From Eledone cirrhosa (Eukaryota), in NCBI GenBank assembly GCA_964016885.1, contig OZ024746.1, forward strand, positions 86,552,001 through 86,616,000: a stretch of DNA of 64,000 nucleotides, in the 5' to 3' direction. This document shows positions 2,590 to 57,293 of this stretch, piece by piece. Below the pieces are notes generated by a model that saw nothing but the letters and a program-made list of their open reading frames with translations, was not told the origin of the DNA and ran no database searches. Made by a program: the position numbers and the translations under genes. Each line of letters begins with the position of its first letter. Position 1 is the stretch's first letter.

Positions 2590-2970
2590 TTACCTTGTTG
2601 TTGTGTTTATATTGTTGTGTTTATATTCATTTTTATGATGATTATTATCATTATAATTAATTTTATTTTGATGGATTTCAGTATTTTTATCTATATACTC
2701 AATGTTATTGTTATACCCAGCTTTATGTAGCGCTTCATTATAATATATAGCCTTACTATTAAATATAGATCTATTAGCAGAGAGCCTGGATATTCTTTGT
2801 TGTACACTGTTGACTATCGCATTCTTAACACTTTTAGGATGATTAGAATAAAAACTAACATAATTTAAGTTCTCATGAACTTTGTGAAAAGGGCAATAAA
2901 AGCCTGAGTTAAGATTTAGAGTCACATCCAAAAAATTAACTATTTTATTATTATTTTATATTTCTAATGT
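2590..2970 (-). pseudogene. Penelope-like element reverse transcriptase C-terminal (thumb) fragment
   Basis: FLDVTLNLNSGFYCPFHK...YVSFYSNHPKSVKNAIVNSVQQRISRLS matches the PLE RT motif FLD...SNHP...RLS. Confidence 0.8.
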
Positions 2971-3723
2971 CGGGGCAACATACTATTTATTGTAGAAAAA
3001 CATAACAATAGTGAATTAAATAGAGTACAGAAAGCAATTACAGAATTTTTTAAAAATTACGACCTGAAATTAAAAATAGAAAATAATAATAAAGTAGTTA
3101 ATTTTTTGGATGTGACTTTGAATTTTAACTCAGGCCTTTATTACCCTTTCCACAAAGTTAATGAGAACTTAAATTATGTTAGTTTTTATTCTAATCATCC
3201 TAAAAGTGTTAAGAATGCGATAGTCAACAGTGTACAACAAAGAATATCCATTCATTAAGTGAAATAAAGTTTATGGAGAGTAAATATAACCACAGTTAGA
3301 TTTAAAAAAAAAAATTAAAATTAAAAAATAACGAAGTTTCACATCTTCCCTTTCAACTCCCTTTCTATATTTCTACCTTGCTTTACGTCCTCTTCTTCTC
3401 TAAGTTTGTCATATTATTTGTGGTATAAAAATGTTGAGTGTTGGTGAAATAAATTACTACCCCTACAGGAATTGAATAATCAAAACCCTAGCGGTATATC
3501 GCATATCTAATCTCTCATATATTTTATCTGATGAAAACGTACTGAAACACCATTGTACCTTTGAAATATGTATAATAAAATATATATTTTGGTTATGAGA
3601 ATATTTTTCATTTATTAATATTTTGAATAATATTAAATACTCCAGATAAATACTTGTCGAGTGCTTCTAATCTATTGTAAAATTGTATTCGTTAAATAAT
3701 CAACAAACCATGTAAAATTTTGG

Positions 3724-40158: not shown

Positions 40159-40244
<86 letters not shown>

Positions 40245-40321
40245 ACCTGTTATTCTTATCTAAAGACATTTTTCCAATTCCATCCCGCCCGTCCCCTCAA
40301 TCTATTTTATTTCTCATTCAT

Positions 40322-40357
40322 TCTTCTGATGAAGGACTAGCCTCCGAAACGTTAAGA
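40322..40357 (+). ncRNA. Minimal type I hammerhead with palindromic ACGT stem III
   Basis: TCTT-CTGATGA-AGGA(ctagcc)TCC-GAA-ACGT-T-AAGA; relatives at 57719-57754 (ACGC, defective) and 39134-39171 (GGAA, defective). Confidence 0.75.
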
Positions 40358-40439
40358 CCCACTTCCTGCTATATAAAGCTTTAACCTAATATATACCTTC
40401 CATATACTCTACCGATTGTGTTGTTATTTGTATTTACCT

Positions 40440-40471
<32 letters not shown>

Positions 40472-40502: not shown

Positions 40503-40988
40503 AGACAGATGGCACTAAGGAATACTGGTGGAACCTGAAAATAAAAACTGCCATCAAATTAAAGCACAACCGGCCTGATATCGTTGTTTGTGACCACACA
40601 TTGAAAACGTGTTCTGTTGTGGAGATCAGCTGCCCACTTGATGTAAACGATGTGAGAAAAATACAAGAGAAGGAGGACATCTACGGACCATTGATGAGGA
40701 GTTTACAAATCCAGTATCCAAGATACACCTTTAGCTTCGTACCCATCATTATTGGAGCTACGGGTTATATACCAACCCGCTTGGACCAATGTATGACTGA
40801 ACTTGGATTTACGGACAAAAAGCGCAGCTCCCTAATTCATAGTCTACAAATGGCTGCGATAGCTGGCACCTTCAAAATTTGCAAAACATTCTTGCGATTC
40901 AAGGGATGACAATTTCTTTTCTTTTACAACCTTGCCACCAGGAAGGTGGCCGGTCAAAAAAATATACTCGAAATTAAGAGAAAGAGAT
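40503..40988 (+). pseudogene. R4/Dong-clade non-LTR element 3' end (RLE) inserted in (TACA)n
   Basis: YWWNLKIKTAIKLKHNRPDIVV..VVEISCPLD..EKEDIYGPL..VPIIIGATG is an open frame ending at 40909. Confidence 0.85.
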
Positions 40989-40993
40989 ATACA

Positions 40994-41024
<31 letters not shown>

Positions 41025-41029
<5 letters not shown>

Positions 41030-41570
41030 TGAATTAAAAAATAGAACAAGGAACCAGGACTATTCATCATCAGTGATCTTCTGGCCATCATAGGTATTTC
41101 TTAGCATTAAAGATCAGATACCTCAGGCCAGCGCGAACAATAACTAAAATAAGTTATTGGGATAAAAAGAATTGGGTGGAGAAAGAGAGACATGTAAACA
41201 ACTCTCTGCTACTCCTCCTCTCTCACTTCCTCCCGTCCGGCACCGTGTGAAATTCTTTTCTCGCTCACATTTCGCATGGCTAAGATGTGACTTTCGTCTT
41301 CTCGTCAATGATTCGCTAGATCTTATGTTCACATGTATCACTGAATTGTTTTCTCATTTTTCCTCTCTTGACGTTGCCTCACCATTCTTGTTTGTTTACA
41401 TGTCTCTCTTTCTCCACCCAATTCTTTTTATCCCAATAACTTATTTTAGTTATGTGTTCGCGCTGGCCTGAGGTATATGATTTTTAATGCGAAGAAATAC
41501 CCATGAGGCCAGAAGATCACTGATGATGGATAGTTCTGGCTTCTCGTCCTATTTTTTAATTCATATGTAT
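41025..41570. mobile_element. Repeat element (family E) with an inverted 3' duplicate carrying a pseudoknotted hammerhead-like RNA
   Basis: Arms 41025-41200(-) and 41385-41570(+); divergent homologue at 56235-56760(-). Confidence 0.75.
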
Positions 41571-41605
41571 CACATTCGCAACAACGCAGTACGCCATTTC
41601 TCATT

Positions 41606-41685
<80 letters not shown>

Positions 41686-56159: not shown

Positions 56160-56234
<75 letters not shown>

Positions 56235-57293
56235 GATAATAAGGGCGCTGCGGAGTTGCAAATGGGTTACATATGAAAAAAGTTTGTCCTTCATCAGTGA
56301 TCTTCCAACTATCATAGGCATTTCATCGCTTTAAAGACCATATACCTCCGGTTGGTGCGAGCAACGGCTAAAAAAAGTCGTTGAGACACGTAAATAAAGG
56401 GGACGTAAGGGTAAACAAACAAAATGGTGAAGCAACAGAAAGTGAGGAAGAAGGAGACAAGTCCCAGATTTCTATGAATTTAAGTTCGATGAAATCGCGA
56501 ACGAGAGAATAAAGACCATCAAACCTGGTTGAAATGTGAGCAAGGAAGGAATTTCGCACAGGTCTAACGGAAGGAAGAAGGGGTCTGGTCTGCGAATTCG
56601 GTAAACATAAGTTCTGTGAAATCGTAGACGAGAGAGAAAAAATTCCGACCAGCTTGGCCGAGAATGTGAGAGAAAAGAATTACTCACAGGTCAAACGGGA
56701 AGAAAGAGGAGGAGGAGAGGTAGTGACAGAGAATGAGTGAGTGAAGGGTGAGGAAGAGGCTAACAGAGAGAGAGACTGCTAGAAAGGGTAAAGATACATA
56801 GAACGAAAAAGACGGTGTAGCAACAGAGGAAAAAAATATGTGTAAATATGATAATAAGGGCGCTGCGGAGTTGTAAATGGGTTACATATGAAAAAAGTTT
56901 GTCCTTCATCCGTGATCTTCCAACTTATATATATATATATATATATGCGAGTAAAACCACAAACCCTCCATCTCAATTCTACTTTTGCAAAGCATAAGAA
57001 ATGTGAAACCGGTAAAGGAAACAAATACATATTATTAAAAAGACTCCAGTTGCATTTCCGATTTCTTTTCCTTATATATATATATATATTTCTCCTTTTC
57101 GGGTAGTGTTTTCGATGCTCAAGAGTGGGATTGGTTGAGTGCAAGGCCTTTCCCCACTTACAAAACCTTCTAAGCACAGGCATTGCTTGTTCAGGATATG
57201 TTACAGGTTCGTGTGGCTCGCCTTAGCCTAAAAGTGCACCATTTTCTGAATCTGACAAGCGATTGCAATACTCTTACCAGGGTTTGCAGCCAT

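What the first reader, a model, noticed from the sequence alone, without database searches (positions are those of the whole stretch)
41055..41160. Covarying pseudoknot/K-turn RNA carrying hammerhead core strands in non-circularly permuted order
Seen: three copies align as follows. 41055-41160(-) reads CTGGCC TG AGGTAT C TGATCTT TAATGCTAA GAA ATACCT ATGAT GGCCAG AAGATCA CTGATGA. 41463-41527(+) reads CTGGCC TG AGGTAT A TGATTTT TAATGCGAA GAA ATACCC ATGA GGCCAG AAGATCA CTGATGA. 56290-56355(-) reads CCAACC GG AGGTAT A TGGTCTT TAAAGCGAT GAA ATGCCT ATGAT AGTTGG AAGATCA CTGATGA. The outer helix changes sequence but keeps pairing (CTGGC/GCCAG vs CCAAC/GTTGG). Two helices change mainly by G-U-compatible substitutions. 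An upstream hairpin also covaries (CAATAACT/AGTTATTG vs CAACGACT/AGCCGTTG). Established: a hammerhead needs stem I-CUGANGA, GAA-stem III and stem III-UH-stem I. Inference: here AGGUAU-H-UGAUCUU is the cleavage strand (H = C or A), GAA-AUACCU the second strand and AAGAUCA-CUGAUGA the third. Their order is the reverse of the circular types I-III, so folding requires a pseudoknot. The junction CUGA-GGUAU / AUACC-UAU-GAUG is a box C/D-type kink-turn that could bend the chain to allow this. Non-circular HHR permutations have been reported but are rare; I cannot tell whether this family is known. Weakness: stem II is reduced to about one covarying pair (T-A vs A-T).
Basis: partly seen in the sequence, partly recalled or inferred. 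Interest (0 to 1): 0.85.

Follow-up and report, generated by a model that had tools for sequence, protein, structure and literature searches.

The report
Rewired hammerhead ribozyme in animal retrozyme
This animal genome carries over ten thousand copies of a small non-coding repeat whose RNA holds the hammerhead ribozyme core in a scrambled, pseudoknotted order, with a kink-turn and a four-way junction we found no report of in a hammerhead; it likely cuts itself into unit-length pieces that Penelope-type retrotransposon enzymes likely copy back into the genome.

Summary
Observation confirmed. The motif is the most conserved part of a 470-750-bp non-coding repeat with at least ~12,700 pattern matches in the genome (reversed controls 0-1). 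It sits in tandem and inverted copies inside (TA)n tracts, like Penelope-like elements (PLEs) and non-LTR retrozymes. Across seven subfamilies, stems I and III, the helix beyond the K-turn and a new helix (II') show compensatory changes. The core behaves like a hammerhead: H17 is non-G in 57 of 58 copies, and N7 variants (2,976) outnumber G5 variants (198). Block order S-G-C is the known non-circular type SGC (Eckert 2023), reported only from metatranscriptomes. [quoted passage not shown] Cleavage, circles, protein binding and the mobilising PLE are untested. Verdict: new variant of a known kind; active hammerhead about 0.85, this monomer fold about 0.7.

The parts
41061..41164 (-). Copy 1 (subfamily B), whole predicted ribozyme domain P0a to P0b
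   Evidence: nested part (P0, hairpin, NC, III) recovered by unconstrained folding, z -2.5
41160..41164 (-). P0 5' strand (pairs with 41061-41065)
   Evidence: 35-46 of 50 rows paired per column, with G-C/A-U/C-G swaps, but not significant against the tree null
41138..41159 (-). Hairpin Ph, one arm of the four-way junction
   Evidence: compensatory changes between subfamilies seen by eye, not counted
41133..41136 (-). Helix II' 5' strand (UCGC), pairs with positions 11.2-11.5 at 41102-41105
   Evidence: 3 of 4 pairs change on both sides; one pair E 0.0095 against the tree null
41123..41131 (-). NC helix 5' strand and K-turn 2n,1n (GA)
41110..41122 (-). Block S: stem III strand, U16.1, H17 (C, 41117), stem I strand; predicted cut between 41117 and 41116
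   Evidence: U16.1-A15.1 in 56 of 58, H17 non-G in 57 of 58; H17 A or C in 100 of 100 listed matches
41093..41105 (-). Block G: II' 3' strand, 11.1, G12-A13-A14 (41098-41100), stem III strand
41081..41092 (-). K-turn bulge (L1-L3), 1b,2b GA and NC helix 3' strand
   Evidence: L2 purine in 57 of 58; L3 pyrimidine and the GA were partly imposed by the search patterns
41061..41080 (-). Block C: stem I strand, CUGAUGA (41067-41073), N (41066), P0 3' strand
   Evidence: N7 variants 2,976 vs G5 variants 198; N and 11.1 purine/pyrimidine-complementary in 52 of 58
41429..41532 (+). Copy 2 (subfamily B); H17 = A at 41477; one base lost in NC
41023..41608 (.). One insertion: short inverted 5'-truncated arm (41023-41201, -) joined head-to-head to a longer arm (41202 to about 41608, +), between (TA)n-type tracts
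   Evidence: the end near 41608 is read by eye
56285..56388 (-). Copy 3 (subfamily A); H17 = A at 56341
56900..56925 (-). Copy 4: 5'-truncated remnant (NC 3' strand, stem I strand, mutated CUGA box)
56233..56925 (-). Partial tandem element: 615-bp pyrimidine-rich non-coding unit plus tail, flanked by (TA)n

Best explanation
The repeat is a non-coding, retrozyme-like element whose RNA carries the hammerhead core in S-G-C order and is predicted to fold as a single pseudoknotted domain that likely cuts itself 3' of H17, likely giving unit-length RNAs or circles that Penelope-like reverse transcriptase/endonuclease would copy into (TA)n tracts. Shown by sequence and calls: copy number, tandem and inverted layout, (TA)n flanks, covariation of stems I, III, NC and II', and hammerhead-type constraint on H17, 16.1-15.1, N7 and G5. 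Inferred fold, 5' to 3': P0a - hairpin - II'a - purine - NCa - GA - IIIa - H17 - Ia - UAA(U/A) - II'b - 11.1 - GAA - IIIb - 3-nt bulge - GA - NCb - Ib - CUGANGA - N - P0b. Stem I, II' and NC meet at a distal three-way junction with linkers of mostly 4 (2-5), 1 and 0 nt. This resembles the junction of stem I, stem II and helix 'I' in HRIMA-1 (about 3, 1, 0 nt), so NC would play helix 'I' and II' would play stem II. The chain is then HRIMA-1 closed through a K-turn at the end of stem III and reopened right after A9-N, where P0, the hairpin, II' and the N.11.1 pair form a four-way junction that leads to the rest of the unit. Inferred, not shown: catalysis, ligation to circles, K-turn binding by Snu13/15.5K, and PLE mobilisation.
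For: Gapless alignment of 33 copies: 89% of cells paired (shuffled 70%, slid controls 33-48%), 19 of 23 pairs change on both sides, 0 of 500 shuffles reach it. In 58 anchored copies, 10 of the top 15 of 3,160 column pairs are among the 30 proposed pairs, and 8 have E < 0.05 within the structure against a home-made tree null (I: 3, III: 2, NC: 2, II': 1). Blind check: families found from blocks G+C alone had the complementary block S upstream with new sequences (GAUGU/ACAUC, AUAGU/ACUAU). 81 of 163 genomic hits versus 1 of 119 chance hits in viral contigs reach UH plus at least 10 of 11 pairs. H17 is C 27, A 26, U 4, G 1. CUGACGA/CUGAAGA forms have amplified in several lineages (2,976), while G5 changes are scattered (198). 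Units are 470-750 bp, 67-72% pyrimidine, with no ATG-started frame over 151 aa. A ~515-bp tandem array was sampled in 7 stretches over ~160 kb. Partial tandems with inverted 5'-truncated copies and (TA)n targets match PLE descriptions (Craig et al.). Intact ~1,230-aa PLE-type frames exist in the genome. One direct head-to-head junction joins the element to a Neptune-like fragment (L048).
Against: No cleavage, RNA or 3D data. All validated type-SGC ribozymes have a regular stem II with G10.1-C11.1 next to CUGAnGA(N); here 11.1 is U, A or C and only 42 of 58 rows pair N with 11.1 (not significant, E 0.29). P0 is not significant against the tree null (best E 0.21). Only one pair reaches E 0.05 over all column pairs. 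Rows were hand-picked, and related subfamilies inflate shuffle tests. Three mutually crossing helices must thread in a monomer; steric feasibility was not modelled. Subfamily C lacks the K-turn. 5' junctions at the predicted cut are only weakly enriched: 10 of 35 sites, p about 0.04 post hoc, confounded by TA microhomology, and 1 of 13 in a separate held set. The element is not the pseudo-LTR of the two PLE families tested.
Confidence: 0.7

Rival explanations
1. It is an active hammerhead, but the same helices form between two units of a tandem transcript (strand-swapped dimer) rather than as a monomer pseudoknot, as for minimal PLE hammerheads.
For: Tandem copies are common. Minimal PLE hammerheads work as dimers (PMC4209133). 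Covariation cannot tell cis from trans pairing.
Against: Stem III is a full 5-bp non-palindromic helix. Short fixed linkers (76-column gapless alignment) mirror monomeric HRIMA-1, whose single 79-81-nt transcripts cleave. The nested scaffold folds within one unit.
Confidence: 0.12
2. It is a simpler type-SGC fold: N is the usual extra base after A9, the next G pairs with 11.1 in a 1-2-bp stem II, and II' and P0 form an alternative, inhibitory or replication-related conformation.
For: HRIMA-1 and PLE hammerheads have an extra base before G10.1. The base after N is G in all A-D rows. In subfamilies C and D it could form G-C or G.U plus G-C.
Against: 11.1 pairs with N in 42 of 58 rows but with N+1 in only 29. 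11.2 pairs with N+1 in 18 of 48. The reading fails in B, E1 and E2. II' covaries in all subfamilies.
Confidence: 0.08
3. It is a hammerhead-derived structure that no longer cleaves (or only with host factors) and serves as a protein-binding or template signal for retrotransposition.
For: PLE minimal hammerheads show low activity in vitro. Stem II is atypical. Genomic 3' ends lie about 70 nt or more past the predicted cut, so the copied template had that site intact or re-ligated. No 3' end at GGUAUC was seen among 18 listed matches.
Against: The constraint pattern is that of the catalytic core: H17 varies among A, C and U but not G; N7 is free; G5 is fixed.
Confidence: 0.08
4. It is a box C/D snoRNA-like repeat, and the hammerhead likeness is chance.
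For: The K-turn reads like AUGAUG/CUGA. One Rfam C/D snoRNA hit at E 9.7, far below its threshold.
Against: The bulged and non-bulged strands are in the opposite 5'-3' order to boxes C and D. It does not explain stem I, GAAA, the UH rule or the CUGACGA variants. The K-turn is lost in subfamily C.
Confidence: 0.02

Closest known systems
Type-SGC hammerhead ribozymes (HRIMA-1 and variants; Eckert et al. 2023, PMC10085705)
   Same: Block order S-G-C, CUGAnGA, GAAA, UH site, covarying stems I and III, a short U/A-rich linker from stem I to the stem II strand, and a helix entering stem I with no spacer.
   Different: There stem II is a regular helix next to CUGAnGA(N) with G10.1-C11.1, and helix 'I' is closed by the 3' end. 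Here stem II is at most one pair plus a four-way junction, its partner and the 'I' partner come from the 5' leader, and stem III continues through a K-turn. Those ribozymes were found in metatranscriptomes and none in genomes of known organisms. 'kink' and 'k-turn' do not occur in their supplement text.
Metazoan non-LTR retrozymes (Cervera and de la Pena 2020, PMC7229834; Li et al. 2026 bioRxiv 10.64898/2026.07.22.740005)
   Same: Non-coding tandem repeats, one hammerhead per unit, GC below 45%, monomers to long arrays, coexistence with PLEs.
   Different: Described members carry type I hammerheads, and both surveys used circular-type descriptors. Invertebrate units are mostly 170-400 nt (51-972 bp across vertebrate families); here 470-750 bp. 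circRNA was not tested here.
Penelope-like elements and their pseudo-LTR hammerheads (Cervera and de la Pena 2014, PMC4209133; Craig et al. bioRxiv 10.1101/2021.04.23.441226)
   Same: Partial tandems, inverted 5'-truncated copies, tails past the ribozyme, (TA)n targets.
   Different: No open reading frame. The ribozyme is not type I. The two PLE families checked carry their own canonical hammerheads (28 of 30 and 25 of 30 loci).
K-turns (box C/D, Kt-23; PMC5061560, PMC5689011)
   Same: 3-nt bulge, tandem G.A/A.G, 3b.3n mostly U.U in A'/B/E, 2n = U form in D.
   Different: Embedded between hammerhead stem III and the helix that joins stems I and II; -1n is G or A; lost in subfamily C; folding and protein binding untested.

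Membership tests
Hammerhead ribozyme | CUGANGA with N7 free and G5 essential | tested here: met
   2,976 N7 variants in several amplified lineages vs 198 scattered G5 variants
Hammerhead ribozyme | GAA-A15.1 paired to U16.1, H17 not G | tested here: met
   56 of 58 and 57 of 58; A or C in 100 of 100 listed of 7,827; GAAA itself was a search anchor
Hammerhead ribozyme | Stems I and III flank the core and covary | tested here: met
Hammerhead ribozyme | Stem II closes the core at 10.1-11.1 | tested here: inconclusive
   N.11.1 paired in 42 of 58, R/Y-complementary in 52 of 58, E 0.29; beyond it the helix is taken over by II' and P0
Hammerhead ribozyme | Site-specific self-cleavage lost with G5A | not testable with these tools
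   needs in vitro transcription
Hammerhead types I-III (Rfam models) | Circular block order with nested stems | tested here: not met
   order is S-G-C; no Rfam hammerhead hit at E up to 10
Type SGC / HRIMA-1 | Block order S-G-C | tested here: met
   definition
Type SGC / HRIMA-1 | Uninterrupted block C: stem II strand follows CUGAnGA within 1-2 nt and pairs with the linker strand (G10.1-C11.1) | tested here: not met
   11.2 pairs with the 5' leader, not with the strand after CUGAUGA (51 of 58 vs 18 of 48); published alignments
Type SGC / HRIMA-1 | [quoted passage not shown] | tested here: not met
   an equivalent helix (NC) exists but is closed by a 5' strand
K-turn | C helix, 3-nt bulge, 1b.1n G.A and 2b.2n A.G, NC helix | tested here: met
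   2n,1n = GA in 20 of 24 (A/B), 8 of 10 (E1), 5 of 8 (E2); UA in 8 of 10 (D); absent in C; bulged-strand GA imposed by some patterns
K-turn | Kinked fold, L7Ae/15.5K binding | not testable with these tools
   no RNA 3D or binding tool
Non-LTR retrozyme | Non-coding tandem units, one ribozyme per unit | tested here: met
Non-LTR retrozyme | Type I hammerhead | tested here: not met
   S-G-C order
Non-LTR retrozyme | Expressed as linear monomers and circRNA | not testable with these tools
   needs RNA from the organism
Autonomous PLE pseudo-LTR | Flanks an RT + GIY-YIG frame in sense | tested here: not met
   1 of 30 and 2 of 30 PLE loci held a full motif, all being the query loci, separated by (AT)n or antisense; only two PLE families tested

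The most novel reading that the evidence does not exclude
A seventh hammerhead wiring, outside the six block orders thought possible: block C is split after A9-N, the whole ~500-nt body of a circular retroelement RNA is inserted there through a four-way junction, and a natural K-turn lets the host Snu13/15.5K protein switch cleavage on. Such ribozymes are invisible to circular-type descriptors, so they may be common in animal repeats now scored as ribozyme-free, possibly including PLE clades such as Naiad.
Probability: 0.4. Interest if true: 0.92.

Novelty: new variant of a known kind. Interest (0 to 1): 0.8.

Why it matters
Non-circular hammerheads were described from anonymous environmental RNAs only. 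Here an S-G-C form is amplified more than ten thousand times in an animal genome, in at least seven diverged subfamilies, and is also present in runs labelled as other organisms, which gives the class a host, a probable job and a rich natural mutagenesis set. It breaks the assumption that the core blocks cannot be interrupted. [quoted passage not shown] It suggests natural protein control of a hammerhead. And it implies that retrozyme and PLE surveys built on type I/III descriptors undercount. All of this is testable with a 104-nt transcript.

Tried and rejected
Rfam scans: only microsatellite-driven miRNA hits and a sub-threshold snoRNA hit. Sequencing runs: no RNA holder listed, which is no evidence on expression. 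Metagenome scan with the family A/B pattern: 0 hits. Viral contigs with a correctly spaced general pattern: 0. The patterns had one N too many, so they do not test for the motif elsewhere; their hits do not pair and serves only as a chance control. Prokaryote genomes are therefore untested, and metagenomes are tested for family A/B only. The 2.9-kb direct repeat at L061/L062 first looked like pseudo-LTRs around a PLE, but the Neptune-like frame is antisense and has its own canonical hammerhead. PLE adjacency overall: 26 of 171 loci, mixed orientation. Pfam named 1 of 10 frame fragments, so PLE calls rest on motifs read by eye (recalled: YIDD, FLD, GIY-YIG, CxxC). Junction mapping at the predicted cut was inconclusive; L382 shows one junction from mid-unit sequence straight into position 1.1. 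Earlier findings of this scan: three look-ups, nothing. The taxon was not determined; 'octopus' was a guess from the microsatellite content.

Full report
1. Observation. The three copies are at the stated places and are far beyond chance in the window (4 matches vs 0.11 expected). Copies 1 and 2 are two arms of one inverted insertion, and copy 3 forms a 615-bp partial tandem with a truncated fourth copy. The genome (G000, 3.0 Gb, taxon not determined; taken to be an animal from its size and repeat content) holds 1,339 exact matches to blocks G+C of the window's families, 9,794 to an S-G-C pattern (a few sites counted twice), 7,827 to S+G alone and 2,976 more with a changed N7. Reversed-pattern controls gave 0-1. 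Searches do not overlap, so about 12,700 is a lower bound.

2. Diversity. Patterns anchored only on GAAA, the K-turn GA and CUGAUGA found other subfamilies (924 matches vs 73 control; 87 vs 2; 160 vs 3). After fetching, their upstream strands were complementary with new letters: stem III GGUAU/AUACC (A, A', B), GAUGU/ACAUC (C, D), AUAGU/ACUAU (E1, E2); stem I UGGUC/GAUCA, UAGUC/GACUA, UUGUC/GACAA, CUGUU/AACAG, UCAACC/GGUUGA. This was a blind prediction of the hammerhead reading. As a chance control, 1 of 119 pattern hits in viral contigs reached UH plus at least 10 of 11 pairs, against 81 of 163 genomic hits, which include truncated and decayed copies.

3. Structure. II' pairs positions 11.2-11.5 with a strand just 5' of the NC helix (UCGC/GCGA, GCGC/GCGC, GAUGC/GCAUC, GUGC/GCAC). 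P0 pairs the strand after CUGAUGA-N with a strand 5' of the hairpin (UGUCC/GGACA, UAUCC/GGAUA, UUCCC/GGGAA, UCCCG/CGGGA). On a gapless MAFFT alignment of 33 equal-length copies, 89% of cells pair, 19 of 23 pairs change on both sides, 0 of 500 shuffles reach these values, and slid controls give 33-48% (this control ignores relatedness, and P0 was not in this alignment). I also ran a home-made R-scape-like test: G-test with APC, against a null of 60 alignments simulated along the tree. It used 58 copies picked by eye as full-length from the 180 distinct hits left after a microsatellite filter (197 before; truncated, fold-back, chance and very decayed hits left out; about 6 mis-parsed rows kept). 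Ten of the 15 best of 3,160 column pairs are among the 30 proposed pairs. Eight have E < 0.05 within the structure (three in I, two in III, two in NC, one in II'). Only one reaches E 0.05 over all pairs, and P0 and N.11.1 are not significant. Unconstrained folding recovers the nested scaffold P0 + hairpin + NC + III in window copies 1-3 and a C copy, but not fully in two other copies (z -0.2 to -4.2).

4. Core behaviour. U16.1-A15.1 holds in 56 of 58 copies and H17 is C 27, A 26, U 4, G 1; all 100 listed matches of a pattern with H17 free have A or C (read by eye). With the same anchors, N7 changes number 2,976 and include whole lineages with CUGACGA or CUGAAGA, while G5 changes number 198 and are scattered. 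That is the known hammerhead pattern (N7 free, G5 essential; the inactivating mutant of Eckert et al. changes this G), and neutral decay would not give it. N and 11.1 are purine/pyrimidine-complementary in 52 of 58 rows. The alternative, with N as an extra base and the next G paired to 11.1, fits 29 of 58.

5. K-turn. The bulge has a purine at L2 (57 of 58). 2n,1n is GA in 20 of 24 A/B, 8 of 10 E1 and 5 of 8 E2 rows, and UA in 8 of 10 D rows (the Kt-23 form). It is absent in C. 3b.3n = U.U with 4b.4n = G:C, seen in A' and B copies, impairs folding without L7Ae/15.5K according to Ashraf et al.. Family A has 3n = G and D has 3b = C, which favour folding in ions alone (McPhee et al., abstract start only). 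So protein dependence is plausible for some subfamilies, not all; the loss in C says a bend matters more than a specific protein.

6. The element. Natural tandem units are 470-750 bp, 67-72% pyrimidine on the ribozyme strand, GC 38-44%, longest ATG frame 151 aa or less (three composite intervals of other composition set aside). One array of ~515-bp units was sampled in 7 stretches across ~160 kb. 3' ends cluster at CAU|AU sites about 18 and 65 nt past CUGAUGA and run into (TA)n, and 5' ends are scattered. This is the layout described for PLEs and animal retrozymes. It is not the pseudo-LTR of the two PLE families tested. One has intact ~1,230-aa frames and a canonical hammerhead in 28 of 30 loci; the Neptune-like one has its own in 25 of 30. 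One direct head-to-head junction with a Neptune-like fragment (L048) and one three-part junction (L061, duplicated as L062) hint at template switching, but two cases are not a test. 5' junctions fall at position 1.1 in 10 of 35 sites among the first 100 of 188 rows (p about 0.04 post hoc among T-starting positions) but in 1 of 13 in held loci: inconclusive. Contigs of runs labelled organisms B and D span the ribozyme with 9 and 6 differences, and E covers part; these are four studies including organism A.

7. Mechanism. Shown: numbers, layout, covariation, core constraint. Inferred: transcripts through tandem units fold the pseudoknotted core and cut at H17; monomers are ligated to circles, or multimers persist; a PLE enzyme nicks (TA)n, primes at CAU|AU and copies more than one unit, which would explain why genomic copies keep the site intact. 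Rivals and odds: monomer fold 0.7, dimer 0.12, simple stem II 0.08, non-cleaving 0.08, snoRNA-like 0.02.

8. Comparison. It works like a type-SGC hammerhead in a non-LTR retrozyme. It is not a member of types I-III (order; no Rfam hit). It fails two defining features of published type SGC: the uninterrupted block C and the 3'-closed helix 'I'. The distal junction has nearly the same spacing as in HRIMA-1, so the fold reads as HRIMA-1 closed through a K-turn and reopened after A9-N. Eckert et al. state that no known alignment has more than 1-2 nt between CUGAnGA and its stems, that direct stem III-to-'I' links are hard to reconcile with the crystal structure, and that none of their RNAs but one GCS candidate came from a known organism.

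9. Literature seen. PMC10085705: main text parts 1-6 of 8, supplement passages and part 6 of 42 (figures not visible). PMC4209133: parts 1-2 of 4. bioRxiv 10.64898/2026.07.22.740005: parts 1-2 of 5. PMC7229834, bioRxiv 10.1101/2021.04.23.441226, PMC6765202 and PMC5061560: passages. PMC5689011: abstract and discussion. PMC4382518: listing only. Searches for a prior report found 'type-SGC' only in the Eckert paper, no paper with hammerhead + k-turn + Penelope, and no listed title or abstract start on a natural K-turn hammerhead. Subscription papers, repeat databases and bioRxiv supplements were not searchable, so a prior description there is possible.

10. Verdict. Real feature; new variant of a known kind; interest 0.8.

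Noticed in passing
window 1435+, 3528+, 40159-, 40326+, 55389+, 55696-, 57723+, 58147+: At least eight canonical-order CUGANGA...GAAA motifs of several families, typical of minimal type I hammerheads of PLEs and small retrozymes.
   Followed up: partly
window 40240-40440(+) and 57723(+); L061:5802(-), 6357(+): A small repeat with a canonical hammerhead shares the 14 bases from CUGAUGA onward with subfamily A2 of the S-G-C element; its stem II resembles P0. It may be a relative or chance.
   Followed up: partly
window 40505-40909(+): Frame that looks like the C-terminal restriction-like endonuclease of a non-LTR retrotransposon (by eye; no Pfam hit), ending just before copy 1.
   Followed up: partly
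window 2590-2955(-) and 2968-3258(+): Inverted pair of PLE reverse-transcriptase fragments (44-56% identical to L149 frame).
   Followed up: partly
L290, L291, L296, L298, L301, L304: Young PLE-type family with open frames of 1,226-1,261 aa and a canonical CUGAAGA hammerhead in its 3' repeat.
   Followed up: partly
G000:C1 about 81.54-81.70 Mb (L131, L132, L383-L387): Satellite-like array of ~515-bp ribozyme-bearing units, at least 110 units in the 7 stretches read.
   Followed up: partly
window 41215-41290(+); L032:1690-1960: A second conserved block inside the units (CUUCC..CCCGU..G core), duplicated at ~130 bp in subfamily A; function not examined.
   Followed up: partly
L084, L085, L100, L156 (subfamily C): Where the K-turn is lost, several copies have a 6-7-nt insertion on the non-bulged strand that could form a small extra hairpin.
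   Followed up: no
L382:1-601: Two successive copies both begin at the predicted position 1.1, the second joined to mid-unit sequence without a (TA)n tract.
   Followed up: partly
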